In this document: positions 26,984 to 42,868 of the stretch, one piece after another
Position numbering within the stretch: the stretch's first letter is position 1
Layout: the number at the start of each line of letters is the position of its first letter
Source: an uncultured Actinomycetes bacterium
Lineage (GTDB): Bacteria > Actinomycetota > Actinomycetes > Streptosporangiales > Streptosporangiaceae
Assembly (NCBI GenBank): GCA_963787645.1
Contig: CAWBDS010000005.1
Coordinates: 56,749-120,748, forward strand
DNA: 64,000 nt
Reading direction: 5' to 3'
Position numbers and translations under genes: made by a program
Notes under the pieces: model-generated
The model's database searches: none
What the model was told of the DNA's origin: nothing
The model's input: the letters and a program-made list of their open reading frames with translations, nothing else

Positions 26984-27187
26984 CTAGCCGTCGCCGGCTA
27001 TTGGGGAGCCGTCGCCGACCGTCGGGAACCGGACGCCTGCTCGTGGAATCAGCAGGTGGCCCAGGCACCGCCGGTGCCGGGGCGGGGGGTCGATCTCCCG
27101 GCTGGCGACCTCGAACAGGTCGCCGGGTGCCGTCCCGGGCCCGGCCGCTTCCTTCAGGTACAGCCCGCTGCGCTCATTGTGCGGCAT
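26984..27187 (-). CDS. Hypothetical small protein (67 aa) filling the gap between ATP-grasp 1 and the FAD oxidase
   Basis: ATG 27187 overlaps the ATP-grasp stop by 14 nt and the ORF ends 10 nt before the oxidase start. About 85% of third codon positions are G/C by hand count. No family recognised. Confidence 0.4.
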   Translation of the reverse strand: MPHNERSGLYLKEAAGPGTAPGDLFEVASREIDPPPRHRRCLGHLLIPRAGVRFPTVGDGSPIAGDG

Positions 27188-28477
27188 GGGCGGGCCTCAG
27201 CCGCTCCCATGGGGTCTTGGTCGTCGTCGGCGCCTGGCCAGCCAGCTTGACCTCGATCATATCCGCGAAGTCCTCCAGCCTGCGCTGGGCGTCCTCGGCG
27301 GAGGTGCCGGTCACGATCAGGAATCCGAGCACGTTGTTCCCGTTCGGCGGCCGGCGGATGATGTCGCCCGGCCGCGCGGTGGCCGCGGCCATCAGGGTCT
27401 GCTCGGCGCCGGCGACCTCAGCGGGTATCCGGACGTATTCCAGCTGGCCTTCGTCGCCGATCAGGCACGTGCCCATCATGTGCACCCCGGTCGGCGCGTA
27501 GTGGTGCACCCGGGGCTGGACGCCGCGGGCCACGTCCATCACCGCCTCGATCGGGCTGTAGTCGGCGGTCACCCGCGCCACCAGGTCCAGGCCGCCGCCG
27601 CCCGGGCGGATGGCGATCTCGACGATGTACGGGTCGCCGCGGTGGTAGCGCACCTCGGCGTGCATCACGCTGCGCCGCAGTCCCTGGGCGTGCGCCGCGG
27701 CGGCGATGACCTGGTGTACCCGGGCCAGTTCCGCGTCGCTCAGCGCGGTCGGCGCCCGGTGCACGTCGTCCTCGAACGTGTCGCCCTCGGCCGTGACCCG
27801 GTCCACGATGGACCCGAGGTAGACCTCGTCGTCCCAGGCCAGTGCCTCGAACAGGTGCTCGTGGCCGTCGAGGAACGATTCCACCAGGACACGGTGCGGG
27901 CCGAGGTCGATGCCTTCGGCTTCGCGCAGATACGGGGGCATGTGCCGCATGCCCTCAGCCGTGATCCGGAAGCGCTGCTCCATCTCGGCGGGGTTATCGA
28001 CCCGGAACACGAAGTCGCTCGCGGCGCCCAGCGTCGGCTTGAGCACGACCGGGTACCCGAATTCCGCGGCGGCGGCCACCGCCTCGGCCGGGCTGCCCAC
28101 CCACCGGTACCGCGGATGCGGCACGCCGGCCCGCTCGTGCGCCTGGCGCATCAGCAGCTTGTTCCGGCTCTTGCGGGCCGCGTCCACACCGACGCCGGGC
28201 AGGCCGAGCGCCTCGGCGACCGCTGCGACCGCGATGACCGCGGACTCGGAGAACGTGAACACGCCGTCGAACGACTCGGCCTGGTGCCATTCCCTGGCCG
28301 CGGCGATGATCTCGCCGATCTGCTGTAGCCGGCGATCCGGTACCGGCCGTCGGCCCAGTAGCCTTCCTCACCGATGCCGTTGAGCACGAACAGGTCCGCG
28401 CCGAAGTCCCTGACCTGACGGTAGCGGCCGAGATGGTAGCTGGCGTGCTGGCGGGCCTCGATGGCGAGCAGCTTCAT
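27174..28477 (-). pseudogene. ATP-grasp ligase 1, one frame break as assembled
   Basis: MKLLAIEARQH...GRYRIAG (ATG 28477, ATGA overlap with the cupin stop) continues in another frame as LQQIGEIIAAAREWH...GYPVVLKP...EIAIRPGGGG. The break is near 28322-28340 and is repaired by adding 1 nt. Confidence 0.8.
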
Positions 28478-28863
28478 GGTGTCGGCGGGCCGTCGTGTCC
28501 GGCGGCGACGTGGCGGGCGGTGAACTTCTCCGACATCTCTGGGTCCCAAAACACGCTGTAGAACTGGAAGTCGGTGGTCCCGGCGTTAATGAGCTGATGG
28601 TTCGTGCCGGGCGGGAAGTGGACGATGTCGCCGGGCAGGAACGGGCTGCGCTCGCCCTCGGCCTCGAGCGCCCCTTCGCCGGAGATCGCGATGAAGATCT
28701 CGTACTCCTGGTGCGCGTGCGGGTCGGTGGCGCCGCCGGGCTCGATGACGCACCACGCGCCCTCGAACGGCGCGTTGAGGGCCGCCCACGGCACCAGGCG
28801 CTGGACGCGGACCCCGTATTCCTCCGGCATGCCGTCGCGGTCAAGCTTGCGGATCTCCATCAC
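28474..28863 (-). CDS. Stand-alone cupin (bicupin motifs 1 and 2 intact)
   Basis: GGATDPHAHQEYEIFIAISG fits G-x5-HxH-x3-E-x6-G and GDIVHFPPGTNHQLIN fits G-x5-PxG-x2-H-x3-N. GTGA/ATG overlap with the N-hydroxylase stop. Confidence 0.9.
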   Translation of the reverse strand: MMEIRKLDRDGMPEEYGVRVQRLVPWAALNAPFEGAWCVIEPGGATDPHAHQEYEIFIAISGEGALEAEGERSPFLPGDIVHFPPGTNHQLINAGTTDFQFYSVFWDPEMSEKFTARHVAAGHDGPPTP

Positions 28864-30191
28864 ACACTCCCGTGGTCAGGCCGCGCTGACGCCGGGTCGT
28901 CGGCGTCTGGTGAACCCCGGCCGGTCTGCTCGCGGTGCGCCAGCAGATCGGCGACGATCTCGCCGGCCCGCACGGCCAGCACACTGATCAGCGAGTCCGC
29001 TATGCCGTGCGTAGCCTCGTTGTTTCCCTGCAGATAACATCCCGCCGTGATGTCCGGCGGGGTGATCATCCGGTAGTGGCGGCTCACCCGGACGTCTCCG
29101 ATACCGCACGCGTCGGCCAGGTCACGGACCAGGCTGGGCGCTCTGGACTCGAAGCCGGTGCCGAGCAGCACCAGGTCGCAGCGCAGTTCGTCCCGGCAGG
29201 CCCGCATCCGGTCGTTGAGCGTGAGCACGATCTCCTCGCCCGCCATCTCGGCCGACTCGATGTCGACCATGGTGACCATGGACAGCCTCTGCTCGCCGGT
29301 CAGCCGCTCCAGGTAGATCTGCCGGAACAGGGTGTTGAGCATATCCGGCGTCACGCCCCCGTAGTTCGTCAGCCGTATGCCCGCCAGCACCTGCTCCCTG
29401 GTCTGCTCGGGGGCGGCGAAGAACTTGTCGGTATAGGAGGGGAAGTACAGCTCGTTGGTGAACTTGCTCGTCTGGTAGTAGTCGAGTCCGGCCGATCTCA
29501 TGATCATCGTGCACCGCGCGCCGGGCAAGCGCTGGTAGATGTCCCACAGCATCTCGGCCGCGCTCTCCGCGGCTCCCACCACCACCACACGGTCGAGTCG
29601 CTGCGGGTCGATCTCGCCGATCTGGCGCAGGTACTCGGTGCTGTGCAGGACGCGCTCCCTGGGCAGCCCGGCGAACGCCGCGGGCACATGCGCGTCGCGG
29701 CCGGCGCCGATCACCAGATTGCGCGCCGCGATCGTCGAGCCGTCCGCCATCCGGGCCAGCCAGCCGTCGGCCACGCCGTCAGCCTGGACGGGCTCGATGC
29801 TCGTGCAGTCCCTGCCGTACTCGACCCGGACCAGCTCCAGCGACTTGGCCGCCCACTGCAGGTAGTCGGAGATCTCCAGCCGGAACGGCAGGAAGCTGGC
29901 CATGTTGATGAAATCGTCCAGCCGGCCGCTGGAGTGCAGATAATTGACAAACGAAAACCGGCTGAGCGGATTGCGCAAGGTGACCAGGTTTTTAAGGAAG
30001 GAGACCTGGCTCTGTGTCCACGGCAGCATCATGCCGCGCTGCCAAACGATGCTCTCGTGCCGCTCGATAACGAGCGTGCTGGACGCTATTTCCGGCGGCG
30101 CCAGTTCCTCGACGGCAACCGCGAAAGCCAGGTTCGAAGGCCCGGCTCCAATGGCGAGAATCTCGACCTCTTGATGAGCCGTCGCCCTCAC
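28860..30191 (-). CDS. Lysine/ornithine N-hydroxylating flavin monooxygenase (SidA/IucD/PvdA family)
   Basis: ILAIGAGPSNLA (FAD site), VVVVGAAESAAE (NADPH site), TGF, and about 440 aa length typical of the family. Confidence 0.9.
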   Translation of the reverse strand: MRATAHQEVEILAIGAGPSNLAFAVAVEELAPPEIASSTLVIERHESIVWQRGMMLPWTQSQVSFLKNLVTLRNPLSRFSFVNYLHSSGRLDDFINMASFLPFRLEISDYLQWAAKSLELVRVEYGRDCTSIEPVQADGVADGWLARMADGSTIAARNLVIGAGRDAHVPAAFAGLPRERVLHSTEYLRQIGEIDPQRLDRVVVVGAAESAAEMLWDIYQRLPGARCTMIMRSAGLDYYQTSKFTNELYFPSYTDKFFAAPEQTREQVLAGIRLTNYGGVTPDMLNTLFRQIYLERLTGEQRLSMVTMVDIESAEMAGEEIVLTLNDRMRACRDELRCDLVLLGTGFESRAPSLVRDLADACGIGDVRVSRHYRMITPPDITAGCYLQGNNEATHGIADSLISVLAVRAGEIVADLLAHREQTGRGSPDADDPASARPDHGSV

Positions 30192-30356
30192 TGCCTTCCC
30201 GCCATAAAGCCGAGCGGGAAGCGCGCGGACGGCACAGAGCCGCCTTTGGCCCCGCTCGCACTAGATGAGAATCGCTCTTGATCGCCAACGACAATGCTCA
30301 CATAGGGGGTGATCCACGTCAAGGGTCCATCGTAACTCAAACACCTCCAAAAGGGA

Positions 30357-30377
30357 GTTGTTACCTTCAGTAACAAC
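30357..30377. promoter_or_regulatory. Perfect palindrome GTTGTTAC-N5-GTAACAAC, candidate operator upstream of the N-hydroxylase operon
   Basis: Read directly. It lies 166-186 nt upstream of GTG 30191 in a 282-bp lower-G+C intergenic region. Confidence 0.3.
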
Positions 30378-30473
30378 CGATGCCCTGGCGGCGGGTAAGG
30401 AGCGCGCCGTGAACTGGGGACGCGGTGGAATATCGCCAGAATAAGGGCAGGAATTTGCACAGGTCAGTTCGGC

Positions 30474-31753
30474 CTAGCCGAACGAAGGCCTGACCTTGAC
30501 GGAGATGAGATCCATCGCCGCCTGGGCGACGGCCAGCGCCTGGTCGGCGGTGGACCCCTCGGCCTCTACCGTTATAACGCGGTCGTGCGAGCTGCGCAGC
30601 GGCGGGGCCCGCTCGCCCACCTTGACCTGGATCGAGCAGCCGTGCACGCCGGGCAGGGCCAGCGCCTCCTCGCGGCCGTCGATGCTCGTCACCTCGCCTG
30701 GCGGCACGGCGCCCATCCATACCGCCGCGTAGCGGTCCGTGACCGGCGGCGCGGTCAGATCCCGGTCCAGCATCATGTCGAGGAAGGCGCCGTTGGCGTC
30801 GTAGCCCGAGGCGATGGAGATGAGCTCGATGATTCCGCCGCCCGCCATCCGGCCCGCGCACTCCATCAGGTAGGGCACGCCATCCTCGACCCGCCACTCG
30901 CAGTGCGTCCACCCGCTGTCCAGGCCCACGGCGTCGAGCACACGCACGGTGCCGGTCAGCAGCCGCTCGGTCAGGTCCGCGCTGATGTCGGCCGGATACA
31001 GGTGACCTTGCTCGACCGGACGCGGGCCGTCGAACAGCAGCGTCCTGGTCACGCCGCCGAACGCCATGTGGCCGGAGCGGAACATCATCTCCACGCTGAA
31101 CTCCTCGCCGCGGACGTACCGCTCGGCGAGCATCCGCAGCGGCAGCGGCCGGTCCGGCAGGAAGACGCCCTCTTCCTGGTGGGTGCACTCCAGCCAGGTC
31201 GCGTCGACCTCACCGGGCTCGGAGACGATCTTGGTCCCGATCGCCGCCTGCCGGTTGGCCGGCTTGAGCACGATCGGGCCGCCGATCTCGGCCATGAACG
31301 CCCTGACCTCGGCCGGCCCCTCACCGGTACCGACTCGGGGTTGGCGATGCCCGCGGACCGGGTTATCTGGCGCAGCAGGTGCTTGTCCCGCAGCGCGCGG
31401 GCGGCTCCGTACCCGGCGCCGCGCACGCCGTACCGTTCCGCCAGCCGCGCCGTGAACGGCACGCCGTAGTCGGATACCGGGAGGATGCCGGCCGGCAGGC
31501 GCTGCCGGTTGGCGTTGTAGAAGCGGTCGGCGGCGCCTTCGAGCTCGTACAGCTCCCACCCGATCAACTCCCGCAGCGTCGGGACGTCGGCGGATTCGGC
31601 CACCGCGTCCCGCTTGCGCAGCACGTCCGGTTCGTCGATGAAGACCGCGGAGCCGTCGGGCAGGTACTGGCCCAGGCCCCGCAGCCCGGCGAGCGTCAAG
31701 CCGATGAAGATGACCGACCCGTCGCTGTTCTCCGCAACGCCTACGTTGCCCAT
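30474..31753 (-). pseudogene. ATP-grasp ligase 2, one frame break as assembled
   Basis: MGNVGVAENSDGSVIFIG...RDKHLLRQITRSAGIANPESVPV continues in another frame as (T)GEGPAEVRAFMAEIGGPIVLKP...ECAGRMAGGG. The break is near 31318-31335 and is repaired by adding 1 nt. Confidence 0.8.
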
Positions 31754-31775
31754 CGCGCTTGGCGCTTCCCTTCGC

Positions 31776-33167
31776 TCAGTTTGGTGATTCGGCGCTGCCG
31801 GGAGCCGCCTGCGTCGCGCCGCCTTGTTCCACGCCGGGAAGGTCGCCGTCCGAAAGCGGCATGTCCGGAGGCGGCATTTCGGCCGGTTCCCTCTCGGCGG
31901 CCTCGGCGGCCTCGGCCGGCTGGACGGCCGGCTTGTCCTGCATCAACGACCAGATCCCGGGGAGGGTGATCACCGCGCCGAGGATGGCGCAGACCAGCCA
32001 GACGCCCTTGCCGATGTGGGTCCACAGCAGCACCCCGGCTACCGGGCCGATCGCGTAGCCGAGCAGGAACGCGCCGTTGGCCATGCCGATGTAACGCGCC
32101 TTGGCTCCCGGCGGGGCGATCCGGGCCGGATGGGCAAAGGCCGCCGGTCCGCCGATCAGCTGGCCCGCGCAGCCGATGAGCATGGCGACGAACAGGACGG
32201 CCAGGCCGCCGGGCAGCCCGAATGAGCTGCGGCCTATCCACAGCAGCACCCATCCGCTCATCACCGCCAGCCAGATCGGCCAGGTCTGCGTCCGCTTGGT
32301 GACGCCGAGTTGGAGGATGACTCCCAGCGTGGCGGAAACGGCGGTGAGCGATGCGTAGATCCAGGTCGGGTACTGCTCCGCCTTCAGCATCAGGGGCAGG
32401 ACCGCGAAGAACTGGATGTGCACCAGCCCGTTGCACAGCATCAGCAGCAGGTAGACCAGGTACCTGCGGTCCCGCAGGATGTCCAGGTAGCTGGTCCGGC
32501 CCTGCCGGGCCGAGGCGGGCAGCCCGGTAGCCTTCTCCGTGTCCCGGGCGAGCTGCGCCGAGCGCAGCGCGAAGGCGGCGATGCCGCAGTAGGCCAGGGA
32601 CGTCCCGGCGTCCGCCCAGAAGACCAGGTCCCAGGAGACCGTGCTCACCGCCGCGCCTACCAGCGGCGCCACCGCCAGACCGCCGTTGTTCACGGTCCGG
32701 TACATGGCCTGCATCATGACCTGGCGGTCCCTGGGCGCCAGGTCGAACAGCAGCGTGCTCGAGGCGGTCGCCGACGCCCGCGCCATGGCGCCCGACAGTG
32801 CCGCCGCCGCGTAGATGGCCGGCAGGTTGTGCAGCAGCGTCAGCGAGTAGGTGAACAGGCCGGCCGCGCCCATCGACGCCACGATCGTCGAGCGCCGCCC
32901 GAGCCAGTCCGCCAGCGCGCCGCCGCCGAGCGTGCCGACAATGGCACCGGCCGAATAGCAGCCGAGGGCGAGGCCGGCCTGCGCCACGGTGAAACCGCGC
33001 GAGATCAGGAAGAGCACGAGAAAGAGCTGGACAAATGCGCCGACCTGGTTGATGAAGACGCCGAGCAGCACCACCTGCGCGCTGATCGGCGTCTCCCGCA
33101 GCATCCGCAGGACGCCCGCGGGTGCGTCCGGCCCGGATTGAGACCGGCGCCATCTGGCCAGCACCAT
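31776..33167 (-). CDS. MFS transporter (12-TMS) with an Ala/Glu/Pro-rich C-terminal tail; paralog of 24726..25973
   Basis: LRETPISAQVVLLGVFINQVGAFVQLFLVLFLISRGFTVAQAG parallels the first MFS. Start ATG 33167 (alternative 33104). Confidence 0.8.
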   Translation of the reverse strand: MVLARWRRSQSGPDAPAGVLRMLRETPISAQVVLLGVFINQVGAFVQLFLVLFLISRGFTVAQAGLALGCYSAGAIVGTLGGGALADWLGRRSTIVASMGAAGLFTYSLTLLHNLPAIYAAAALSGAMARASATASSTLLFDLAPRDRQVMMQAMYRTVNNGGLAVAPLVGAAVSTVSWDLVFWADAGTSLAYCGIAAFALRSAQLARDTEKATGLPASARQGRTSYLDILRDRRYLVYLLLMLCNGLVHIQFFAVLPLMLKAEQYPTWIYASLTAVSATLGVILQLGVTKRTQTWPIWLAVMSGWVLLWIGRSSFGLPGGLAVLFVAMLIGCAGQLIGGPAAFAHPARIAPPGAKARYIGMANGAFLLGYAIGPVAGVLLWTHIGKGVWLVCAILGAVITLPGIWSLMQDKPAVQPAEAAEAAEREPAEMPPPDMPLSDGDLPGVEQGGATQAAPGSAESPN

Positions 33168-33302
33168 CCGCCTGTAGAGCCCCTTCCGTGGTGAGCGAAA
33201 CGGGACACATGGCGCGCCTCGAGGATGCTTAGGCTGCCTGCAGCGCGTTGCCGTCACGGTACCAAAACGCACTTAACGCGACAATGTCGCGAGGCCGCCG
33301 CG

Positions 33303-34337: not shown

Positions 34338-34371
34338 GGGTCCTCTCTTACGTGCCAGATTTGATGGGGAT

Positions 34372-35640: not shown

Positions 35641-37034
35641 GACCGCCCCGACAGCGCGGCCAGCGGCGCCGAGTCGGCCCCGGCCCCGGCGGTCAGCGCC
35701 AGCACCAGGCACCGGGTGGCCAGCGCGGAGTCGAACCCGCTCAGCTGCAGCGCCCGCGCTGCCCGCTCCAGCTCGGCCGCGGCCAGCTCGGCCGGCAGCA
35801 GGCCGGCCGACGGTGCCGCCCCGGCCAGCAGCGGCCGCACGTAGTCGCAGAATGCGCGGTAGGACTCCCGAGTGAAGTTGCTCTCGTACCGGTCCGGCCG
35901 GTCCCAGGACAGGTATAGCCGGACCAGCTCACGGTCCTCCTCGGCCAGGAACTCATCCGCCCACAGCGCGTGGTTGCGGCTGGTGGAGAACTTCAGCCCG
36001 TCCAGCAGGTAGAGCTCGTTCACGGTGGCGCCGCGCAGCAGCGGCCGCGTCACTCCCGCCGCGGCCAGGATCGCCGGGTAGAGGACTGCGAAGTAGAACG
36101 TGTTGTCGATGCCGTTGAAGTGCCAGACGCCGTCCACCTCGTGCCAGGCCTCGACCCGCCGGGCCAGGGTGTCCGCGCTGGGGTCCAGGGCCAGGGCCGG
36201 CCCGTAGAGATAGCTCAGGCCGAGCTCGGTGGGGAAATCGACCCGCAGCCCGGACAGCTCGCCGTCGCACTCGATGCCCCAGTTGGTCGGGTAGGCGACG
36301 GGATAGTCGGGGAGCGGCACCCGCAGGTAGTGCGCCAGTGCCGCCCGGACCCGCCCCGGCAGGTCGGCCTGCTGCCACTCCGCGACCAGCTGCGCTCGGT
36401 AGTCTTCCAGCGGCAGGACCGGCACCGTGACCTGCATCGGGCGCAGCGCGCCGCCGCACCGGGCGCAGCTGGCGTCGACGAGCAGCTCGGCGGAGGTGAA
36501 CCCGCCGCAGGGCTCGCAGGACAGCCCGTTCGCCCCGGCGCCGCAGATCGGGCACTTGCCGACCACGTAGGAGTGGTGCATGGTGCGACCGCAGTCCGCG
36601 CACGCGTGCAGCGTGACCTCGCGCATGCTGATGCTGCCCGCGGCGATGAGCTCGGTCAGCATGCCGGTGACGGCGCGCTGGAACGCGTCGTCTTCCGGGT
36701 CGAGGAACACGTCGTAACCGATGCCCGCCAGCTCGAATGCCGTGGTGATCTGGGTCCGGAACCCCCTGACCATCTCGTTGACGTCGACCCCGAGGTTCTC
36801 CGCCTTGGTCAGCACGTAGTTGGGGTGCACGTCGACGCCGGCCAGGGTAAGCACCCGGTCCCCCCGGGCTCGCGCCGCGCGCGAGGCAACGTCGGCGGCC
36901 AGGTACGGGCCGGACAGGTGCCCGATGTGCAGCGGGCCGTTGACCGTGGGCTGCGGAATGACAATAACGGTCACTCCAGGCTGCTTGGTCACCAATTTGT
37001 CCGCCGGTTCTGGGTAAGGCGAAACGTGCGACAC
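35637..37034 (-). CDS. Methionyl-tRNA-synthetase-like (class I aaRS catalytic core) paralog with a short C-terminus
   Basis: NGPLHIGHLSG (HIGH) and LKFSTSRN (KMSKS variant). Four Cys pairs (CADCG, CPICG, CEPCG, CARCG) match MetRS zinc knuckles. Only about 100 aa follow KFSTS. Start uncertain (GTG 37034, GTG 36992 or 37082). Confidence 0.85.
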   Translation of the reverse strand: MSHVSPYPEPADKLVTKQPGVTVIVIPQPTVNGPLHIGHLSGPYLAADVASRAARARGDRVLTLAGVDVHPNYVLTKAENLGVDVNEMVRGFRTQITTAFELAGIGYDVFLDPEDDAFQRAVTGMLTELIAAGSISMREVTLHACADCGRTMHHSYVVGKCPICGAGANGLSCEPCGGFTSAELLVDASCARCGGALRPMQVTVPVLPLEDYRAQLVAEWQQADLPGRVRAALAHYLRVPLPDYPVAYPTNWGIECDGELSGLRVDFPTELGLSYLYGPALALDPSADTLARRVEAWHEVDGVWHFNGIDNTFYFAVLYPAILAAAGVTRPLLRGATVNELYLLDGLKFSTSRNHALWADEFLAEEDRELVRLYLSWDRPDRYESNFTRESYRAFCDYVRPLLAGAAPSAGLLPAELAAAELERAARALQLSGFDSALATRCLVLALTAGAGADSAPLAALSGRS

Positions 37035-37431
37035 TGCATTCCCGCTCCTACTCCTTTCCCGTTGACCCAGGCAGAACGCCACGAAGGGCTCGGCGAACCG
37101 CTGGCCAATGGCAGGCTCCGACGGTGGTGAGGTGGGCGGCGCGAGGCGAGTATACGGCTGCCTACCCGAGCGGGCTAGACCCCCGCGGTTCGTTCAAGTC
37201 CGAGGAGTACCCGAGTAGATGTCACCTATCAGTCACTGACAGTAGTGAAAGTCGCCGGAGCAGCGGGAAATGGGTGGCGGCCGATCCACGCAACGGTCAC
37301 GGAGCCCGCGGTGCGCCTGCCGGGTGAGGAAATCGGGCATTGCGGCGCTGCCGGACGGAATATAGCCTTGGGCTCGTGGCCCGTCGCCGTATGCGGCGCC
37401 AGCCGACAGCGGGCGACGGCCGGAGGTCCCG
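37035..37431. promoter_or_regulatory. Divergent control region of the two biosynthetic operons
   Basis: About 400-bp lower-G+C non-coding gap between the minus-strand MetRS-paralog gene and the plus-strand methyltransferase gene. Contains the short palindrome CAGTCACTG. No promoter hexamers could be assigned confidently. Confidence 0.4.
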
Positions 37432-38163
37432 TTGAGCGAGGGTCATTCTTCCCGCGATGCCGCGGCCGTCTCGATGTGGGATGAGGCTTATGGCCCGGCG
37501 CACCTGAAAGACCAGCAGAACCTGTGGGGCGATCCGCCCGTGCCTTACGCCGCGCGGGCTGCTGCTGCCTTCGCGGCCAATTCTTCCCGGCTGGTAATTG
37601 ACCTGCCGTGCGGTGACGGGCGCAATCTCGCCCCCCTGACGGAGGGCACGTCCATCCTGCTCGGCGCCGATACCTCGGTGCAGGCGATGACGATCGCGGA
37701 AAGGGTGGCGGCCCGTGCGGGAATTGCCGCCATGACCGTCTTCCTGCGCATGGACGTCTTCGATACGGGCCTGCTCGACAACTCTGTCGACGGCATTTTC
37801 TGCTGGGATCTGCTCGGGCACCTGAGAAATGTCTCGGACGCGCTGCGGGAACTTTACCGGGTGATCAGGCCGGGTGGCATCATCGTCGCCAACATGTGGA
37901 CGATGAATGACTGCCAGACATCTGATCCGGACATCAGGCAGATCGGCCCGAAAGAATACATCGACCATTTCGATTTTTACTGCAGATTCTACGATCAGGA
38001 TGACCTCGGCACGCTGCTGAATGCTACCGGGATAAGCGCGGAATCGGTTGAGGTCAGTGCCTGGACCGAGCCCGCGCACGCCGACTACCGGACCTATGAG
38101 CATGACCATGAGAGCCTGGCCTTCACGATCAGGAAGGGCGTGGATGAGCACCAGGCTCGGTGA
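37432..38163 (+). CDS. Class I SAM-dependent methyltransferase
   Basis: VIDLPCGDGRN (motif I), DGIFCWDLLGH, LRPGG. TTG 37432 is preceded by GGAGG at 5 nt; the alternative start is ATG 37474. Confidence 0.8.
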   Translation: MSEGHSSRDAAAVSMWDEAYGPAHLKDQQNLWGDPPVPYAARAAAAFAANSSRLVIDLPCGDGRNLAPLTEGTSILLGADTSVQAMTIAERVAARAGIAAMTVFLRMDVFDTGLLDNSVDGIFCWDLLGHLRNVSDALRELYRVIRPGGIIVANMWTMNDCQTSDPDIRQIGPKEYIDHFDFYCRFYDQDDLGTLLNATGISAESVEVSAWTEPAHADYRTYEHDHESLAFTIRKGVDEHQAR

Positions 38164-39124
38164 GCCCAGGTCGGCCGAAGCCGAGTTGGCGGCGCCCGGA
38201 TTCAGCGCGGGCGTCGGCTCGGCGATCGCCCATCACGGCGAGTTGCTCCAGGGTGTGTTCGATGACGGCGCGGGTCGGCTGCGCCGCGCGCTGGTGACGA
38301 TGCCGCTGCCCGGCCGGGGCAGCCGGGCGGTGTTCTACCCGAGCCAGAGCCACTGGGGCGTGGTGGGGCCGGCCGGGCTGACCAAGGCCAGGCGCGCGGC
38401 CATCTACGCGCTGCGTGAGTTCTCCGGGCACCCGTCGCCGGCCAAGGGCGGCCGGGTGGAGATCACCAGCAGCGTCCCGCACGGTATCGGCATGGGCTCC
38501 TCGACCAGCGACGTCGCCGCGGTCATCCGGGCGGTGGCCGACTATCACGGCGTGACCCTGTCCCGGGAGGAGGTCGGCCGGCTCGCGGTGCTGGCCGAGG
38601 TAGCCGCGGACTCAGTGATGATCGACGACCGCGTGGTCCTGTTCGCCCACCGGGACGGGCTGGTGCTCGAGACGTTCGGGCACCAGCTGCCACCCATGGT
38701 CGTGGTCGGCTGTGACACGGCGCCCGGCCAGGTCGTCGAGACGCTGGGCCTGCCGCCCGCCGACTACAGCGACAAGGAGGCCGGGGAGTTCCAGGTGCTG
38801 CGCGGAGCGCTGCGCCGGGCCATCGCCACGGAGGACGTCGCCCTGCTCGGCAAGGTCGCGACGGCCAGCGCGCGGATCAACCAGCGCTACCTGCCCAAGC
38901 CGGGCCTGGAGGCGCTGATCGAGCTGTGCGTGCGGCATGGCGGCGCCGGCCTGCAGATCGCCCACAGCGGCACCGTGGCCGGGCTGATCTTCGACGCCCG
39001 GCACCCGCGCATGGGCATCGAGGGCTGCGTGCTGCGGATCAAGGAGCTCGGGTTCGAGGTGACCGATGTCATCGAGCCCGCGCACGCCCCGGCGCTGCGC
39101 GCGGCGCACCGCACGGCCTCATGA
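38144..39124 (+). CDS. GHMP-family kinase, PduX (L-threonine kinase)-like
   Basis: HHGELLQG, SSVPHGIGMGSSTSDVAA (GHMP motif II), LPKPGLEALIEL......GLQIAHSGTVAGLIFD; colinear with Salmonella PduX as I recall it. Confidence 0.8.
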   Translation: MSTRLGEPRSAEAELAAPGFSAGVGSAIAHHGELLQGVFDDGAGRLRRALVTMPLPGRGSRAVFYPSQSHWGVVGPAGLTKARRAAIYALREFSGHPSPAKGGRVEITSSVPHGIGMGSSTSDVAAVIRAVADYHGVTLSREEVGRLAVLAEVAADSVMIDDRVVLFAHRDGLVLETFGHQLPPMVVVGCDTAPGQVVETLGLPPADYSDKEAGEFQVLRGALRRAIATEDVALLGKVATASARINQRYLPKPGLEALIELCVRHGGAGLQIAHSGTVAGLIFDARHPRMGIEGCVLRIKELGFEVTDVIEPAHAPALRAAHRTAS

Positions 39125-40191
39125 GCGTCCGCGGCAGCTTTGCCGAGGCGACCGACGCCTATCAGCTGCCCAGGCTTATCCGGCTCGGCCCGAATCTGTA
39201 CGCGGCCTGCTTCACGCTGATGAAGATGGTTCCCGCCCGGTTCATCCTGCGCCGGGCCGCGGAGCGGGGAATGCTGGAGCCCGGGACCGTCATCGTCGAG
39301 ACGACCTCGGGCACCTTTGGCCTGGCGCTGGCCATGCAGGCCGTGCACATGGACCGCCAGCTGATCCTGGTCGGCGATCCCGTCATCGACGAGCGCCTGT
39401 ACCGCAGGCTGACCGACCTCGGCACCGTCGTCGAACGGGTCAGCGCGGAGGCGGGCCGGATACCCGGCGGGTACCAGGCCGCCCGGCTGCAGCGGCTCGA
39501 GGCCATCATGGCCGATCTCGACGCCGCCTTCTGCCCCTGGCAGTACTCGAACCCGGATAACCCGCGCGCCTATGCCACGGTGGCCGAATACTTCCTGGAG
39601 TGCCTCGGCCAGGTCGACTGCATCGTCGGGCCGGTGGGGTCGGGCGGCTCGATGTGCGGGACTGTCACCCACGTCCGGGCGCTGCTGCCCGAATGCCGCG
39701 CCGTCGGCGTCGACAGCCATTCCAGCGTGCTGTTCGGCCATCCCGATGGTCCCCGCGAGCTGCGCGGCATGGGCATGAGCCTGATGCCGGACAACCTGGA
39801 TCACCGGGTCTTCGACCAGGTGCACTGGACCGCTCCCGCGCCTGCCTACCAGGCGACCCGCCAGCTGCACCAGCGGCACGCCCTGTTCATGGGGCCGTCG
39901 AGCGGCGCGGCCTACCTGGCCGCGCGCTGGTGGGCCGGCGCGAATCCGGACGCCCTGACCGTCGTGATGATGCCGGACGAGGGATACCGCTACCAGGACA
40001 CCGTTTACGACGACGCCTGGCTGGCCGGCCGCGGCCACCTGGATGAGCCGCTGCCCGCCGAGCCCGTCATGGTCTCAGATCCGGCCCGGCCGGCCGGCTC
40101 CTGGATGGCGTTCGACTGGGCCAGGCGCTCTTACGCCGACGCCATGTCGCGGCCGCTATCGTCGGCGGCCGCCGACGGTGAGCCGTCGTGA
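39121..40191 (+). CDS. Fold-type II PLP-dependent enzyme (cysteine synthase/CBS/SbnA-like family)
   Basis: ETTSGTFGLALA, GPVGSGGSMCG (phosphate-binding loop), GPSSGAAY. ATGA overlap with the kinase stop. Confidence 0.8.
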   Translation: MSVRGSFAEATDAYQLPRLIRLGPNLYAACFTLMKMVPARFILRRAAERGMLEPGTVIVETTSGTFGLALAMQAVHMDRQLILVGDPVIDERLYRRLTDLGTVVERVSAEAGRIPGGYQAARLQRLEAIMADLDAAFCPWQYSNPDNPRAYATVAEYFLECLGQVDCIVGPVGSGGSMCGTVTHVRALLPECRAVGVDSHSSVLFGHPDGPRELRGMGMSLMPDNLDHRVFDQVHWTAPAPAYQATRQLHQRHALFMGPSSGAAYLAARWWAGANPDALTVVMMPDEGYRYQDTVYDDAWLAGRGHLDEPLPAEPVMVSDPARPAGSWMAFDWARRSYADAMSRPLSSAAADGEPS

Positions 40192-41639
40192 CCGGGACCG
40201 GCCGCCTGACCGGTGAACTCGGCCTGCGTACCCGCCGGGTGGTGTACGGCGAGCCGACCCAGGCCGAGCTGGCGGCCGAGCTCGCGCTGATGATCCGCGT
40301 CGACCAGGCCCACCTGGTCATGCTGGCCGAGCAGCAGCTGATCCAGCCAGCGTCCGCGGCCTGCCTGCTAGCCTGCATGGACGAGCTGGCCGCCGGGCAG
40401 TTCAGCGCGCTGCGATCACGGCCCGCGCCGCGCGGGCTCTACCTGTGCTACGAGGGCTACCTGATCGAGCGGCTGGGCCCGGACATCGGCGGGGTGCTGC
40501 ATTCCGGCCGGTCCCGCAACGACCTGAAGGCCACCATCACGGCGCTGCGGCTGCGCGACTGGCTGCTGGAATTCGCCGGTCAGGCGGTCCGGCTCGAGGC
40601 CATCTTGCTGTCCCGCGCGCGGGCCCACGCGGGCGTGGTCATGCCCGCCTACACCCACTTCCAGGCCGCGATGCCGATCAGCTACGGCTACTACCTGCTC
40701 GGCGTGGCCACCGCGGTGGGCCGCGAGATCGACGCGCTCGCCTCGGCCAGTTCCGGGCTGGCGCGGTGTCCGCTCGGCGCGGGCGCGGTGGCCGGCACCG
40801 ATCTGCCCATCAACCCGGAGCGAACCGCGCGGCTGCTCGGCTTCACCGCCGCTACCCGGCACGCGCTTGATGCCGTGGCCAGCCGGGACGTGCCGCTGCG
40901 GCTGCTGGCCTGCGCCGCCAGCCTGGCTGTCGTGCTGAGCAGGTTCGGCACCGACCTGCAGCTGTGGAGCACCGCCGAGTTCGGCTTCATCGACTTTCCC
41001 GACCGCCTGGTGGGCGGCAGCTCGGCCATGCCGCAGAAGCGCAACGCCTTCCTGCTCGAGCACGTCAAGGCGAAGGCAGGCCACGTCACCGGTGCCTGGG
41101 CGGCCGCGGCCGGCATGATGACGGCGGCGCCGTTCACCAACTCGATCGAGGTGGGCACCGAGGCCATGGCCGCCGTCTGGCCCGGGCTGGGCGCCGCCAT
41201 GGACTCCGTCCTGCTCACCCAGGTGCTGGTCAGCGGGGCGAGGCCGGTGCCCGACCGGATGCGGCAGCGGGCAGCCGAGGCGTTCACCGCAGCCACCTGG
41301 CTGGCCAACCGCCTGGTGCGGCAGGGTGTCCCGTTCCGCACCGCCCACCACATGGTGGGCGACGCGGTCCGCCAGGCGGTGGCGGCAGGCTCGACCCAGC
41401 TGGCCGACTTCGGCCCGCCGGGCTGGCTGGACGGGATCGACGAGGCGCGCCTCGACCTCGCGGACTTGGTGCGCGTGCACTCGGCCGGCGGCGGCCCCGG
41501 CGCGTTCACCGGGGCGTTCGCCGATAGCCAGTGCCGGTGGACGGCGCACCGGGACTGGGTCTCCGGCCAGCAGCAGGCCACGCGCGAAGCCGGCGCCGCG
41601 CTCGCCGCGGCGGCCGGACGGCTGAAGGACCGCGGATGA
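40188..41639 (+). CDS. Argininosuccinate-lyase-like enzyme (fumarase/aspartase superfamily)
   Basis: SGRSRNDL, THFQAAMP and the signature GSSAMPQKRN. GTGA overlap with the upstream stop. Confidence 0.85.
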   Translation: MTGTGRLTGELGLRTRRVVYGEPTQAELAAELALMIRVDQAHLVMLAEQQLIQPASAACLLACMDELAAGQFSALRSRPAPRGLYLCYEGYLIERLGPDIGGVLHSGRSRNDLKATITALRLRDWLLEFAGQAVRLEAILLSRARAHAGVVMPAYTHFQAAMPISYGYYLLGVATAVGREIDALASASSGLARCPLGAGAVAGTDLPINPERTARLLGFTAATRHALDAVASRDVPLRLLACAASLAVVLSRFGTDLQLWSTAEFGFIDFPDRLVGGSSAMPQKRNAFLLEHVKAKAGHVTGAWAAAAGMMTAAPFTNSIEVGTEAMAAVWPGLGAAMDSVLLTQVLVSGARPVPDRMRQRAAEAFTAATWLANRLVRQGVPFRTAHHMVGDAVRQAVAAGSTQLADFGPPGWLDGIDEARLDLADLVRVHSAGGGPGAFTGAFADSQCRWTAHRDWVSGQQQATREAGAALAAAAGRLKDRG

Positions 41640-42868
41640 GCGGTGCGTGGCTGGTGCTCGTGGAAAGCAACACCACCGGGTCCGGACGGCTGTTCTGCGA
41701 CTGCGCCCGGCGCCTCGGCCTGCGGCCGGTGCTGATCGCCCGTGACCCGGCGCGCTACCCCTACGTGGCGGCTGACCAGGTGGAGCACCGGGTAGCCGAC
41801 ACCGCCTCCGCGGCGGCCGTGCTGGCCGCCTGCCGCGGCCTGGGCGGCGTGGTCGCCGGTGTCACCAGCAGCTCGGAGTACTTCATCGCCACCGCCGCCG
41901 AAGTGGCCCGCTCCCTCGGACTGCCTCACCCGGCGCCGGATGCGGTCCGGGCCTGCCGCGACAAGCACGCCCAGCGCATCACCTTGAGCGCCGCGGGCGT
42001 ACCCTGCCCGCCGTTCGCGGCCGCCCGCTCACCGGAGGAGGCCGCGGCGGCGGCCGCGCGGGTCGGATACCCGGTCGTGGTCAAGCCGGCCTCCGGCACC
42101 GGGTCGATCGCGGTGCGCCTGTGCCACGACAGCGCCCAGGTCCGGGCCGCGGCCGCCCATGCCTTCGCGGCGCCGGATCCCGCGCTCCCGCGGCAGGAGA
42201 CCGTCTTGGTCGAGGGTTACCTGACCGGCACCGAGTACTCGACCGAGCTGATCGACGACCAGGTGGTCGGGGTCACCAGGAAGCTGCTCGGCCGCGAGCC
42301 GTACTTCGTCGAGACCGGCCACGACTTCCCCGCTCCGCTGCCCGGAGCCACGCGCGCGGCCCTGAGCCGGTTGGCGGTGGCCGCGGTACGCGCCCTCGGC
42401 CTGGGCTGGGGCGGCGCCCATGTCGAGCTCCGCTACTCCGCCGCCGGGGTCCCGTGCGTGGTCGAGGTCAACCCCAGGCTGGCCGGTGGCATGATCCCGC
42501 GCGCGGTCCAGGAGGCGACCGGCGTCGACATGATCTTCCACGTGGTGGCGGCCGCGGCGGCCCGGCCGGAACCGCTGCGGCCCCGGCCGGGCCGGGCCGC
42601 GTCGATCCGCTTCCTGGTGGCCGGCCAGGAGGGCACGCTGACCGGGATCCGCGGCACGGCCGAGGCCCGGCGGGTGCCGGGTGTCGTCGAGGTGGGCATC
42701 ACCGCCCAGGTCGGCCAGCACGTGGTGCCGCGCCACTCGTTCCGGGACAGGCTCGGTTACGTGATCGCGGCCACGGACGACGGCGAGCAGGCCGCGCGGT
42801 CGGCCGAGGCGGCCCTGGCCCTGCTGGCTGCCCAGATCACCCCGGTCACGGCGGGAATGCCGTCATGA
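41636..42868 (+). CDS. ATP-grasp ligase 4
   Basis: RDKHAQR, GYPVVVKP, EGYL.G.EYS.E, EVNPRLAGG. ATGA overlap with the lyase stop. Confidence 0.85.
   Translation: MSGAWLVLVESNTTGSGRLFCDCARRLGLRPVLIARDPARYPYVAADQVEHRVADTASAAAVLAACRGLGGVVAGVTSSSEYFIATAAEVARSLGLPHPAPDAVRACRDKHAQRITLSAAGVPCPPFAAARSPEEAAAAAARVGYPVVVKPASGTGSIAVRLCHDSAQVRAAAAHAFAAPDPALPRQETVLVEGYLTGTEYSTELIDDQVVGVTRKLLGREPYFVETGHDFPAPLPGATRAALSRLAVAAVRALGLGWGGAHVELRYSAAGVPCVVEVNPRLAGGMIPRAVQEATGVDMIFHVVAAAAARPEPLRPRPGRAASIRFLVAGQEGTLTGIRGTAEARRVPGVVEVGITAQVGQHVVPRHSFRDRLGYVIAATDDGEQAARSAEAALALLAAQITPVTAGMPS

What the first reader, a model, noticed from the sequence alone, without database searches (positions are those of the whole stretch)
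27174..42868. Four ATP-grasp ligase paralogs in one cluster, with no NRPS, PKS or carrier protein
Seen:
- ATP-grasp genes lie at 27174-28477, 30474-31753, 34372-35640 and 41636-42868. All have the RDKH...GYPVVLKP...EVN.R.GG pattern.
- Each is translationally coupled to a different partner: cupin, MFS, MetRS paralog, ArgH-like lyase.

Established: ATP-grasp enzymes form amide or peptide bonds via acyl-phosphates (L-amino-acid ligases, dapdiamide- and pheganomycin-type ligases).

Inference: they carry out successive ligations building a multi-residue peptide around the N-N unit, or some act on non-peptide carboxylates. Two of the four carry a frame break as assembled (see the frame-break finding).
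Basis: partly seen in the sequence, partly recalled or inferred. Interest (0 to 1): 0.65.

Follow-up and report, generated by a model that had tools for sequence, protein, structure and literature searches.

The report
Hydrazine-peptide gene cluster with four ATP-grasp enzymes
Four ATP-grasp genes sit in an actinomycete cluster with no assembly-line synthetase: three look like peptide or hydrazide ligases tied to a nitrogen-nitrogen bond machinery, and the fourth belongs to a module that makes a diamino acid.

Summary
Four ATP-grasp genes lie at the stated coordinates, and each one's best solved-structure match is an L-amino-acid ligase. No NRPS, PKS or carrier protein was found.

- **AG1, AG2, AG3** sit inside a four-gene hydrazine cassette (lysine-type N-monooxygenase, cupin, MetRS-like enzyme, DAO-type oxidase). 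This layout was published in 2026 for fuscazine, where two ATP-grasp ligases build a hydrazide tripeptide. A Streptomyces genome carries orthologues of all three beside the same cassette.
- **AG4** is different. With the adjacent ArgH-like lyase it matches the two halves of the fused DabC protein. With the GHMP kinase and SbnA-like PLP enzyme upstream it forms a split DabABC module for 2,3-diaminobutyrate. The ATP-grasp part has no established role in that module.
- **AG2 plus its MFS gene** is an accessory cassette, present zero, one or two times in relatives.
- **The two frame breaks** are single-base deletions seen only in this assembly. Every relative examined has intact genes. Whether they are sequencing errors or real mutations is unresolved.

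The product is unknown. I rate this a new variant of a known kind, common in soil actinomycetes, of moderate interest.

The parts
27174..28477 (-). AG1: L-amino-acid-ligase-type ATP-grasp gene. ATGA-coupled to the cupin gene. Frame break (1-nt deletion) at about 28325.
   Evidence: Pfam ATP-grasp_4, LAL_C2 and ATPgrasp_N. Best PDB match is BL00235 at 1e-24. Relatives are intact at 434-442 aa. Break site shown.
30474..31753 (-). AG2: BacD-like ATP-grasp ligase gene, downstream of MFS gene b. Frame break (1-nt deletion) at about 31320. Forms an accessory cassette with that MFS gene.
   Evidence: Pfam LAL_C2 and ATP-grasp_4. Best PDB match is BacD at 6e-15. Relatives are 426 aa and intact. The cassette is present 0, 1 or 2 times in relatives.
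34372..35640 (-). AG3: ATP-grasp ligase gene, GTGA-coupled to the MetRS-like gene.
   Evidence: Pfam ATP-grasp_4 and others. PDB matches BL00235 and a second L-amino-acid ligase. 1674 homologues at E<=1e-20. Next to or near the MetRS-like gene in L002, L004-L008.
41636..42868 (+). AG4: ATP-grasp protein of the DabC-N type, ATGA-coupled to the ArgH-like lyase gene upstream and to the N-oxygenase gene downstream.
   Evidence: NF002563/PRK02186 positions 5-396, E 3.6e-103. Some homologues are named 'argininosuccinate lyase' or 'S-sulfo-L-cysteine synthase' by JGI. Junctions.
40188..41639 (+). ArgH-like lyase, equivalent to the C-terminal half of DabC.
   Evidence: NF002563 positions 411-882, E 1.4e-126. 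TIGR00838 argH scores 287 bits. Pfam Lyase_1 and ASL_C2.
39121..40191 (+). SbnA-like PLP beta-replacement enzyme (DabB-like).
   Evidence: Pfam PALP. TIGR03945 SbnA family, E 5e-59, below the family cut-off. Start set by the ATGA junction and the L008 homologue.
38144..39124 (+). GHMP-family kinase (DabA-like, predicted L-threonine kinase).
   Evidence: Pfam GHMP_kinases_N and _C. Same order kinase-PLP-lyase-ATP-grasp in L002, L005-L007 and L010; L008 ends within the lyase gene. In-frame ATG at 38144.
37432..38163 (+). SAM-dependent methyltransferase, first gene of the + operon.
   Evidence: Pfam Methyltransf_11 and _25. Conserved in L002, L003, L005-L008.
42865..44697 (+). FzmM/CreE-family flavin N-oxygenase, last gene of the + operon.
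   Evidence: Pfam NAD_binding_9. Full-length match to L-aspartate N-hydroxylase 8CP2, E 3e-57. The catalytic Arg cluster is kept but several Asp-binding residues are not.
35637..37082 (-). MetRS-like half of a split hydrazine synthetase.
   Evidence: Pfam tRNA-synt_1g. The HIGH motif is visible in the sequence. 73-85% identical homologues in four MAG loci.
28474..28860 (-). Stand-alone cupin, the N-N-forming half of the hydrazine synthetase.
   Evidence: Pfam Cupin_2. Start at MEIRK by comparison with L008. Called as one 561-aa product with AG1 in L006.
28860..30191 (-). Lysine/ornithine-type flavin N-monooxygenase (likely start GTG at 30152).
   Evidence: Pfam Lys_Orn_oxgnase, E 3e-84. N-terminus compared with L008.
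25970..26974 (-). DAO-family FAD oxidase, in the position of Spb39/FuzF.
   Evidence: Pfam DAO. Conserved after AG1 in L005-L008.
31776..33143 (-). MFS transporter b, paired with AG2.
   Evidence: Pfam MFS_1. 88% identical to the L008 homologue. MFS+AG2 pair is tandemly doubled in L010.
24726..25994 (-). MFS transporter a.
   Evidence: Pfam MFS_1. Present in L006 and L007, absent in L008.
33303..34337 (-). Conserved 344-aa protein with a signal-peptide-like N-terminus and no known family.
   Evidence: No Pfam or NCBIfam match. 66-68% identical homologues at the same place in L002 and L005, and a 344-349-aa gene without a Pfam match there in L006 and L008.
27089..27187 (-). Remnant (about 33 codons) of a roughly 450-aa gene that lies intact between AG1 and DAO in relatives.
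   Evidence: tblastn of the L005 protein against the window. A no-Pfam gene of 450-485 aa sits there in L005, L006 and L007; similar genes beside DAO in L010 and elsewhere in L003. The L005 copy has no Pfam, NCBIfam or PDB match.
44776..46860 (-). DUF885 and YjbR genes, possibly associated with the cluster.
   Evidence: Pfam. YjbR flanks the L006 cluster, and DUF885 plus YjbR flank the Streptomyces cluster L009.

Best explanation
This is an NRPS-independent biosynthetic cluster for a small peptide containing a hydrazine or hydrazide. It is of the fuscazine type and has two divergent operons.

**Minus operon (steps 1-5 inferred from family membership and the fuscazine precedent)**
1. The N-monooxygenase hydroxylates lysine N6.
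2. The MetRS-like enzyme activates an amino acid and esterifies the hydroxylamine.
3. The cupin rearranges this ester to an N-N bond.
4. The DAO-type oxidase releases an alpha-hydrazino acid.
5. AG3, AG1 and the accessory AG2 use ATP to form acyl-phosphates. They join carboxylates to hydrazine or amine nucleophiles, one bond per enzyme.
6. MFS pumps export the product.

**Plus operon: a non-proteinogenic building block (inferred from the DabABC study)**
1. The GHMP kinase phosphorylates threonine.
2. The SbnA-like PLP enzyme replaces the phosphate with aspartate.
3. The ArgH-like lyase removes fumarate to give 2,3-diaminobutyrate.
4. AG4 is the ATP-grasp partner of that lyase (a split DabC). 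Its chemical role is unknown.
5. A methyltransferase and an FzmM-like N-oxygenase probably tailor the unit.

**Shown here:** domain identities, gene order, translational coupling, orthology and conservation in relatives. **Inferred:** all substrates and every chemical step.
For: **All four are ligase-type**
- Pfam ATP-grasp_4 and LAL_C2; best PDB matches are L-amino-acid ligases.
- Each keeps the Lys of the (V/I)(V/L)KP motif and the E-x-(N/A)-x-R motif, as do their orthologues.

**The hydrazine cassette is complete**
- Lys_Orn_oxgnase, Cupin_2, tRNA-synt_1g and DAO.

**Published precedent**
- Fuscazine uses a stand-alone N-monooxygenase, cupin, flavin oxidase and MetRS-like enzyme plus two ATP-grasp ligases to make a hydrazide tripeptide (PMC13149037).

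**The AG1/AG2/AG3 trio is conserved**
- It recurs with the cassette and without any Dab module in Streptomyces GCA_000721645.1.
- AG3 and AG1 keep their places beside the MetRS-like and cupin genes in L002-L008.

**AG4 plus the lyase equals a split DabC**
- AG4 scores 346 bits and the lyase 424 bits on the two halves of NF002563. AG3, AG2 and AG1 score 171, 137 and 97 bits.
- The order kinase-PLP-lyase-ATP-grasp is conserved.
- DabABC function and the existence of split DabC forms are reported in PMC10906522.
Against: - No substrate of any enzyme was determined.
- The role of the DabC ATP-grasp part is not established in the source paper, so AG4 could still be a true ligase.
- The FzmM-like N-oxygenase next to a lyase also resembles a nitrite-generating aspartate/nitrosuccinate pair.
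- L003 keeps the kinase, the PLP enzyme and the N-oxygenase but shows no lyase or AG4 within the 15.6 kb held.
- AG1 and AG2 are frame-broken in this assembly, so the pathway may be inactive in this strain.
- The window lacks the roughly 450-aa protein that most relatives have between AG1 and DAO.
Confidence: 0.65

Rival explanations
1. All four ATP-grasp enzymes, AG4 included, are chain-building ligases that add residues one after another around the N-N unit.
For: - AG4 has a full LAL_C2 domain and an L-amino-acid ligase as best PDB match.
- It keeps the ATP-grasp catalytic motifs.
- The DabABC pathway as written needs no ATP-grasp step, and the role of DabC-N is open.
Against: - AG4 is about twice as close to the DabC N-half as the other three are.
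- It always travels with the kinase, the PLP enzyme and the lyase (L008 ends inside the lyase gene).
- It is absent from the Streptomyces three-ligase cluster.
- Fused DabC works in a pathway whose product is a free amino acid handed to an NRPS (PMC10906522).
Confidence: 0.2
2. The lyase and the FzmM-like flavoenzyme form an aspartate/nitrosuccinate (ANS) nitrite-generating pair. AG4 acts in nitrite-dependent N-N chemistry rather than in diamino-acid synthesis.
For: - The 610-aa flavoprotein aligns end to end with L-aspartate N-hydroxylase 8CP2 (E 3e-57).
- It keeps the catalytic Arg cluster (PMC10404684).
- From my own knowledge, hydrazine synthetase and the ANS pathway coexist in triacsin biosynthesis.
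Against: - The lyase is ArgH-type. It passes the argH model cut-off and best matches the DabC C-half.
- Asp entry-chamber residues are not kept: R276, N413, R577 and R593.
- The kinase and SbnA-like enzyme in the same operon are unexplained by an ANS pathway.
- Known nitrite-using N-N enzymes are not ATP-grasp proteins (my own knowledge).
Confidence: 0.1
3. In this strain the cluster is a decaying, non-functional relic. The frame breaks in AG1 and AG2 are real mutations.
For: - Both breaks are in the sequence. The window's own AG2 is on record only as a 273-aa fragment from a 158-kb contig (P0136).
- A shattered AMP-binding pseudogene lies 4 kb away.
- A neighbouring gene has been reduced to a 33-codon remnant.
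- The other cluster genes and the other long ORFs in the window read through intact, but no systematic test for frame breaks was made (one search was not decisive).
Against: - All relatives, including one at 90-94% DNA identity with the same gene order, have intact AG1 and AG2.
- Single-base deletions in GC-rich DNA are a common sequencing or assembly error.
- No reads of this strain cover the two sites, and exact-match look-ups found nothing.
Confidence: 0.4
4. The ATP-grasp genes are primary-metabolism enzymes (PurK, PurT, biotin carboxylase, D-Ala-D-Ala ligase), or are carrier-protein-dependent (LysX) or ribosomal-peptide (graspetide) ligases.
For: Weak secondary matches to carboxylases, Ddl, LysX and RimK.
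Against: - Best matches are always L-amino-acid ligases.
- The LAL_C2 domain is present in three of the four.
- There is no LysW-like gene or DWGE motif, and no space for a carrier gene. A precursor-peptide ORF was not searched for.
- All four are embedded in secondary-metabolite operons.
Confidence: 0.03

Closest known systems
Fuscazine (fuz) cluster of Microbispora fusca (Millar et al., Nat Chem 2026, PMC13149037)
   Same: - Stand-alone N-monooxygenase, cupin, flavin oxidase and MetRS-like enzyme.
- These sit together with L-amino-acid-ligase-type ATP-grasp enzymes.
- No NRPS or carrier protein.
- ATP-grasp ligases make the hydrazide and amide bonds.
- The closest relatives of the window's cluster are MAGs of Streptosporangiaceae, the family to which Microbispora belongs.
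   Different: - Three cassette-linked ligases here instead of two.
- No AlaX-type tRNA deacylase and no Fe/2-oxoglutarate arginine hydroxylase.
- An extra operon with a Dab module, a methyltransferase and an FzmM-like N-oxygenase.
- Gene order differs.
- Sequence orthology to FuzC and FuzH was not tested.
DabABC / PacQST-type 2,3-diaminobutyrate module (PMC10906522)
   Same: - GHMP kinase, SbnA-like PLP enzyme, ArgH-like lyase and an ATP-grasp part, in one operon.
- Split forms of DabC are described in the same paper.
   Different: - Here the lyase precedes the ATP-grasp part, and they are two proteins.
- The module feeds an NRPS-free pathway rather than an NRPS.
- It is followed by an N-oxygenase.
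- Whether the product is Dab or Dap was not determined.
Spb38/39/40 and related hydrazine synthetases (s56-p1, triacsin, azaserine, thrazarine)
   Same: The same chemistry is predicted: N6-hydroxylysine, MetRS-like activation, cupin N-N formation and FAD oxidase release.
   Different: - Cupin and MetRS-like parts are separate proteins here, but fused in most characterised systems.
- Downstream assembly uses ATP-grasp ligases, not NRPS, PKS or amino-group carrier proteins.
Characterised L-amino-acid ligases (BacD/YwfE, BL00235, DdaF, RizA, TabS)
   Same: Same fold and domain set, and the same ATP-dependent acyl-phosphate mechanism is predicted.
   Different: Relatedness is remote: 50-90 bits for the best matches in the PDB search. 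The nucleophile is probably a hydrazine for at least one of the enzymes.
FzmM/CreE L-aspartate N-hydroxylases (8CP2)
   Same: The neighbouring 610-aa flavoprotein is a full-length homologue that keeps the catalytic arginine cluster.
   Different: Several aspartate-binding residues are replaced, and no CreD/FzmL-type lyase is evident.

Membership tests
ATP-grasp superfamily, L-amino-acid ligase type | ATP-grasp domain plus the LAL C-terminal domain | tested here: met
   ATP-grasp_4 in all four. LAL_C2 in AG1, AG2 and AG4. AG3 lacks a LAL_C2 match in the window, though some close relatives have one.
ATP-grasp superfamily, L-amino-acid ligase type | Closest solved structures are L-amino-acid ligases rather than carboxylases or purine enzymes | tested here: met
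   Best matches are 3VOT (BL00235) or BacD for all four.
ATP-grasp superfamily, L-amino-acid ligase type | Conserved ATP and Mg motifs: the (V/I)(V/L)KP lysine and E-x-(N/A)-x-R-x-x-G | tested here: met
   Alignment of AG1-4 with their orthologues.
ATP-grasp superfamily, L-amino-acid ligase type | ATP-dependent amide-bond formation between amino-acid-like substrates | not testable with these tools
   Needs enzyme assays.
DabC (ATP-grasp + ArgH-like lyase) of the DabABC pathway: AG4 and the lyase | Sequence match to both halves of the fused protein family | tested here: met
   NF002563: AG4 on positions 5-396 (E 3.6e-103), lyase on 411-882 (E 1.4e-126).
DabC (ATP-grasp + ArgH-like lyase) of the DabABC pathway: AG4 and the lyase | Operon partners: a GHMP kinase and an SbnA-like PLP enzyme | tested here: met
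   Conserved in L002, L005, L006, L007 and L010.
DabC (ATP-grasp + ArgH-like lyase) of the DabABC pathway: AG4 and the lyase | Direct similarity to B. thailandensis DabC, or to PacQST or friulimicin Dab proteins | not tested
The link rests on the NCBIfam model and the paper's description.
DabC (ATP-grasp + ArgH-like lyase) of the DabABC pathway: AG4 and the lyase | Production of 2,3-diaminobutyrate or diaminopropionate | not testable with these tools
   Needs expression and assay.
Fuscazine-type NRPS-independent hydrazine peptide cluster | Four-gene hydrazine cassette with stand-alone cupin and MetRS-like proteins | tested here: met
Fuscazine-type NRPS-independent hydrazine peptide cluster | Two or more ATP-grasp ligases and no NRPS or carrier protein | tested here: met
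Fuscazine-type NRPS-independent hydrazine peptide cluster | AlaX-type tRNA deacylase and arginine hydroxylase in the cluster | tested here: not met
   No such Pfam domains in any gene from 23.8 to 46.9 kb.
Fuscazine-type NRPS-independent hydrazine peptide cluster | Orthology of the ligases to FuzC and FuzH | not tested
   No supplementary sequences are held.
Aspartate/nitrosuccinate (ANS) nitrite pathway | CreE/FzmM-type aspartate N-hydroxylase with the Asp-binding residues | tested here: inconclusive
   Full-length homology to 8CP2. R13, N62, R266, R409, R412 and R416 are kept. R276, N413, R577 and R593 are not.
Aspartate/nitrosuccinate (ANS) nitrite pathway | CreD/FzmL-type nitrosuccinate lyase | tested here: inconclusive
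   The only lyase present is ArgH/DabC-C type. No nitrosuccinate-lyase family was among the NCBIfam matches; whether that library holds such a model is not known.
LysW/amino-group-carrier-protein-dependent ATP-grasp (s56-p1 type) | LysW-like carrier gene with a C-terminal EDWGE motif | tested here: not met
   No DWGE or DWGD motif in six frames of 23-45 kb. LysX matches are weak.

The most novel reading that the evidence does not exclude
The two operons may be chemically coupled in a way not yet described.
- The FzmM-like N-oxygenase would oxidise the Dab-pathway intermediate or the diamino acid itself.
- That would create a second hydroxylamine, which the split hydrazine synthetase or the ligases use, giving a new N-N (or N-N-N, or heterocyclic) peptide scaffold.
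- The DabC-type ATP-grasp (AG4) would have a real catalytic step in this chemistry, which would settle the unknown role of a widespread domain.
- The swappable ligases (AG2+MFS cassette versus the unclassifiable roughly 450-aa protein) would make this a natural combinatorial family of hydrazide peptides across soil actinomycetes.
Probability: 0.15. Interest if true: 0.75.

Novelty: new variant of a known kind. Interest (0 to 1): 0.5.

Why it matters
- NRPS-independent hydrazide peptides made by ATP-grasp ligases were first described in 2026, from one cluster.
- This locus shows that a much larger, uncharacterised family exists, mostly in uncultured soil Actinomycetota. AG3 alone has more than 1600 homologues at E<=1e-20.
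- The family combines the hydrazine cassette with a diaminobutyrate module, an FzmM-like N-oxygenase and a variable set of ligases.
- It offers candidate hydrazine-accepting ligases for biocatalysis.
- It offers a test bed for the unknown function of the DabC ATP-grasp domain.
- It is an example of ligase-cassette swapping as a route to product diversification.
- For annotation, the lesson is not to count every ATP-grasp gene in such a cluster as a chain-extension step.

Tried and rejected
**Direct comparison with FuzC and FuzH.** No supplementary text is held for the paper.

**Independent reads across the two frame breaks.**
- Only soil-metagenome relatives cover the sites.
- The one run with 100%-identical pieces (X20) does not reach them.
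- ERR11594400, which holds a 99.87%-identical 3.7-kb contig, is not in the run index.
- Exact-protein look-ups of the cupin (two possible starts) and of the truncated AG2 found nothing.

**Classifying the roughly 450-aa protein that relatives carry between AG1 and DAO.** No Pfam, NCBIfam or PDB match even at E<=10. Its resemblance to a permuted ATP-grasp ('LMEINMGSTTGG', 'LILKPTAMHGGLGV') is my impression only.

**A GC3 frame-change scan of the whole window, to judge general assembly quality.** Not decisive.

**Rejected readings.**
- Primary-metabolism ATP-grasp enzymes.
- LysW-dependent ligases.
- Graspetide ligases.
- The amidohydrolase at 23864-24706 as a conserved cluster member: it is present only in the closest relative L008.

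**An inefficiency.** I rebuilt loci through a large DNA alignment before noticing that the data files hold several records each.

Full report
**Setting**

The window is about 72% G+C. Raw ORF lists are noisy at that composition, so genes were called by third-position GC and then checked by Pfam and NCBIfam. The closest relatives found are metagenome-assembled genomes of Streptosporangiaceae, Micromonosporaceae and Pseudonocardiaceae. The source is therefore probably a Streptosporangiaceae-like actinomycete.

Yes. Four ATP-grasp genes lie at the stated coordinates:

| Gene | Coordinates | Strand |
|---|---|---|
| AG1 | 27174-28477 | - |
| AG2 | 30474-31753 | - |
| AG3 | 34372-35640 | - |
| AG4 | 41636-42868 | + |

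- Pfam finds ATP-grasp_4 in all four. It finds the L-amino-acid-ligase C-terminal domain LAL_C2 in AG1, AG2 and AG4.
- Each has an L-amino-acid ligase (BL00235/3VOT or BacD) as its best match among solved structures. Carboxylases, Ddl and purine enzymes score below.

Gene junctions:
- cupin/AG1 and lyase/AG4 overlap as ATGA.
- MetRS-like/AG3 overlaps as GTGA.
- MFS/AG2 has a 22-nt spacer holding a purine-rich stretch.

No gene scanned in the window (a few short ORFs were not scanned) has NRPS, PKS or carrier domains. No LysW-type motif occurs in any frame of the cluster.

Two refinements are needed.
- The four are only 28-36% identical to one another.
- Their Mg-site motif differs. AG3 and AG4 have EVN-R-GG. 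AG1 has EIAIRPGGGG and AG2 has ECAGRMAGGG. Each variant is conserved in that gene's own orthologues.

They are four old lineages of one family, not recent duplicates.

**Anatomy of the cluster**

Minus operon, in order of transcription:
1. MetRS-like enzyme
2. AG3
3. A conserved 344-aa protein of no known family
4. MFS transporter b
5. AG2
6. Lys/Orn-type N-monooxygenase
7. Cupin
8. AG1
9. DAO-type FAD oxidase
10. MFS transporter a

Plus operon, divergent from a 350-bp intergenic region:
1. Methyltransferase
2. GHMP kinase
3. SbnA-like PLP enzyme
4. ArgH-like lyase
5. AG4
6. A 610-aa FAD protein

**The hydrazine cassette and AG1-AG3**

N-monooxygenase, cupin, MetRS-like enzyme and DAO-type oxidase form the known bacterial hydrazine-forming set. 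A literature search turned up a 2026 paper on the fuscazine cluster of Microbispora fusca.
- That cluster has the same four stand-alone proteins plus two ATP-grasp ligases and no NRPS.
- FuzC joins alanine to the hydrazine nitrogen of hydrazinyl-arginine, forming a hydrazide.
- FuzH then adds pipecolate (PMC13149037).

Further support comes from relatives.
- Streptomyces GCA_000721645.1 carries orthologues of AG3 (48%), AG1 (61%) and AG2 (50%). They sit around an N-monooxygenase (58%), a cupin (57%), a more divergent MetRS-like enzyme (33%) and a DAO-type gene with no detectable similarity to the window's DAO (none at E 1e-5). There is no diamino-acid module.
- In the Streptosporangiaceae-type loci, AG3 follows the MetRS-like gene and AG1 follows the cupin gene. 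In one metagenome contig the cupin and AG1 are called as a single 561-aa product.

**AG4 is a different thing**

- In NCBIfam, AG4 and the lyase upstream of it match the N-terminal and C-terminal halves of one 890-aa family, NF002563/PRK02186. The E-values are 3.6e-103 and 1.4e-126.
- The other three ATP-grasp proteins match the same N-half far more weakly: 171, 137 and 97 bits against 346 for AG4.
- A literature search for this gene combination found the DabABC study (PMC10906522). In that pathway:
  - a GHMP-type L-threonine kinase makes O-phosphothreonine;
  - an SbnA-like PLP enzyme replaces the phosphate with L-aspartate;
  - DabC, an N-terminal ATP-grasp domain fused to an ArgH-like lyase, yields (2S,3R)-2,3-diaminobutyrate.
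- The paper states that the two DabC halves occur as separate proteins, or with the ATP-grasp part fused to the PLP enzyme, in other operons.
- This fits the JGI names 'argininosuccinate lyase' and 'S-sulfo-L-cysteine synthase' given to stand-alone AG4 homologues.
- The order kinase-PLP-lyase-ATP-grasp is conserved in relatives down to about 59% identity.

AG4 is therefore best read as part of the building-block module. That paper did not establish what the ATP-grasp part does, so a ligase role cannot be excluded.

**The last gene of the plus operon**

The 610-aa flavoprotein aligns end to end with L-aspartate N-hydroxylase 8CP2 of the FzmM/CreE family (E 3e-57).
- Kept: the catalytic arginine cluster (R266, R409, R412, R416), R13 and N62.
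- Not kept: residues that hold aspartate in the entry chamber (R276, N413, R577, R593), compared with PMC10404684.

I read it as an N-oxygenase of an anionic amine that may not be plain aspartate. It raises a rival in which this enzyme and the lyase make nitrite. The ArgH/DabC identity of the lyase and the presence of the kinase and PLP enzyme argue against that rival.

**Variation among relatives**

- The common form (L002, L005, L006, L007) lacks AG2 and MFS b. Where the contig extends that far (L005, L006, L007), it carries a 450-485-aa protein with no Pfam, NCBIfam or PDB match between AG1 and DAO.
- The window keeps only the first 33 or so codons of that gene, at 27089-27187.
- The window and a 20.5-kb metagenome contig, L008, share the AG2+MFS form. 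L008 has the same gene order apart from lacking MFS a, 85-94% DNA identity over the aligned blocks and 88-96% protein identity.
- A more distant contig, L010, has the MFS+AG2 pair twice in tandem.
- AG2+MFS is therefore a movable accessory cassette, and the number of ligation steps varies within the family.
- The family is large. AG3 has 1674 homologues at E<=1e-20 and AG4 has 1056 at E<=1e-30. Most come from soil metagenomes and none carries a functional name.

**The frame breaks**

Contigs of eight soil-metagenome runs were laid on the region. Seven span the AG1 site, five the AG2 site, and every one that does has one extra base there.

| Site | Runs showing an extra base | Window (coding strand) | Relatives |
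|---|---|---|---|
| about 28325 (AG1) | 7 | GGC T-A CAG | GGC TCx CAG |
| about 31320 (AG2) | 5 | GTG A-G GGG | GTG ACC GGG (L008 only) |

- Alignment with L005, L006 and L008 gives the sequences in the table.
- L008 encodes intact AG1 (437 aa) and AG2 (426 aa).
- The window's own AG2 is on record only as a 273-aa fragment from a 158-kb contig, so the break is in the deposited assembly.
- I could not find reads of the strain itself over the two sites.

A shattered AMP-binding pseudogene 4 kb away shows real gene decay nearby. The other cluster genes and the other long ORFs read through intact. I rate real mutation against sequencing error at roughly even odds.

**Mechanism proposed (inferred, not shown)**

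1. Lysine N6 is hydroxylated.
2. The MetRS-like enzyme loads an amino acid onto the hydroxylamine.
3. The cupin forms the N-N bond.
4. The DAO-type oxidase releases an alpha-hydrazino acid.
5. AG3, AG1 and AG2 each make one hydrazide or amide bond through an acyl-phosphate.
6. The plus operon supplies 2,3-diaminobutyrate, possibly N-oxygenated or methylated.
7. MFS pumps export the product.

The identity of the acceptor amino acid, the order of ligations and the product are unknown.

**Verdict**

Three ligases plausibly build the peptide. The fourth belongs to a DabABC-type module.
- This is a new variant of a recently described kind, widespread in soil actinomycetes, with an unknown product.
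- Interest is moderate (0.5).

Noticed in passing
window 42865-44697 (+): A 610-aa flavoprotein is a full-length homologue of L-aspartate N-hydroxylase 8CP2 (FzmM/CreE family). It keeps the catalytic Arg cluster, but several Asp-binding residues are replaced. It may N-oxygenate a Dab-pathway intermediate instead of aspartate.
   Followed up: partly
window 27089-27187 (-); intact in L005 13836-15206, L006 15718-17070, L007 14663-16120, L003 2108-3556: Relatives carry a 450-485-aa protein between AG1 and DAO (elsewhere in L003) with no Pfam, NCBIfam or PDB match. The window keeps only about 33 codons of it. Motifs such as LMEINMGSTTGG and LILKPTAMHGGLGV suggest to me a permuted ATP-grasp, but this is unproven.
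   Followed up: partly
window 46900-48113 (-): An AMP-binding (aryl-acid adenylating type) gene is broken across three reading frames with an in-frame stop. An amidohydrolase-like C-terminal fragment follows it. This is a decayed region just outside the cluster.
   Followed up: partly
L010 5664-11281: The MFS + AG2-type ligase pair occurs twice in tandem directly after the AG4 homologue. The pair is absent from L002, L005, L006 and L007. It looks like a movable transporter-plus-ligase cassette.
   Followed up: partly
L006 14046-15731: Cupin and AG1 are called as a single 561-aa product in one metagenome contig. This could be a true fusion or a sequencing artefact. If true, it links AG1 physically to N-N bond formation.
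   Followed up: no
L007 9633-10004; L009 2346-2687: Avidin-like genes sit inside two related clusters. One lies between the MetRS-like gene and the AG3 homologue in L007. The other lies next to a BBE-type oxidase in the Streptomyces cluster. They might be binding or self-protection proteins.
   Followed up: no
window 44776-46860 (-); L006 459-818; L009 11323-14972: DUF885 and YjbR-domain genes recur at the edge of three versions of the cluster, including the distant Streptomyces one. They may belong to the pathway (processing or immunity).
   Followed up: no
window 33303-34337 (-): A 344-aa protein with a signal-peptide-like N-terminus and Gly/Asn-rich repeats has no known family. A homologue (66-68% identity in L002 and L005) or a like-sized no-Pfam gene (L006, L008) sits at the same place.
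   Followed up: no
window 24726-25994 (-): MFS transporter a lies between DAO and the amidohydrolase in the window. It is missing from the otherwise collinear closest relative L008, and present in L006 and L007.
   Followed up: partly
L003 (Micromonosporaceae MAG) 4859-9555: This version has methyltransferase, kinase, PLP enzyme and N-oxygenase, but no ArgH-like lyase or AG4 in the 15.6 kb held. The N-oxygenase may substitute for the lyase there, or those genes may lie elsewhere.
   Followed up: no
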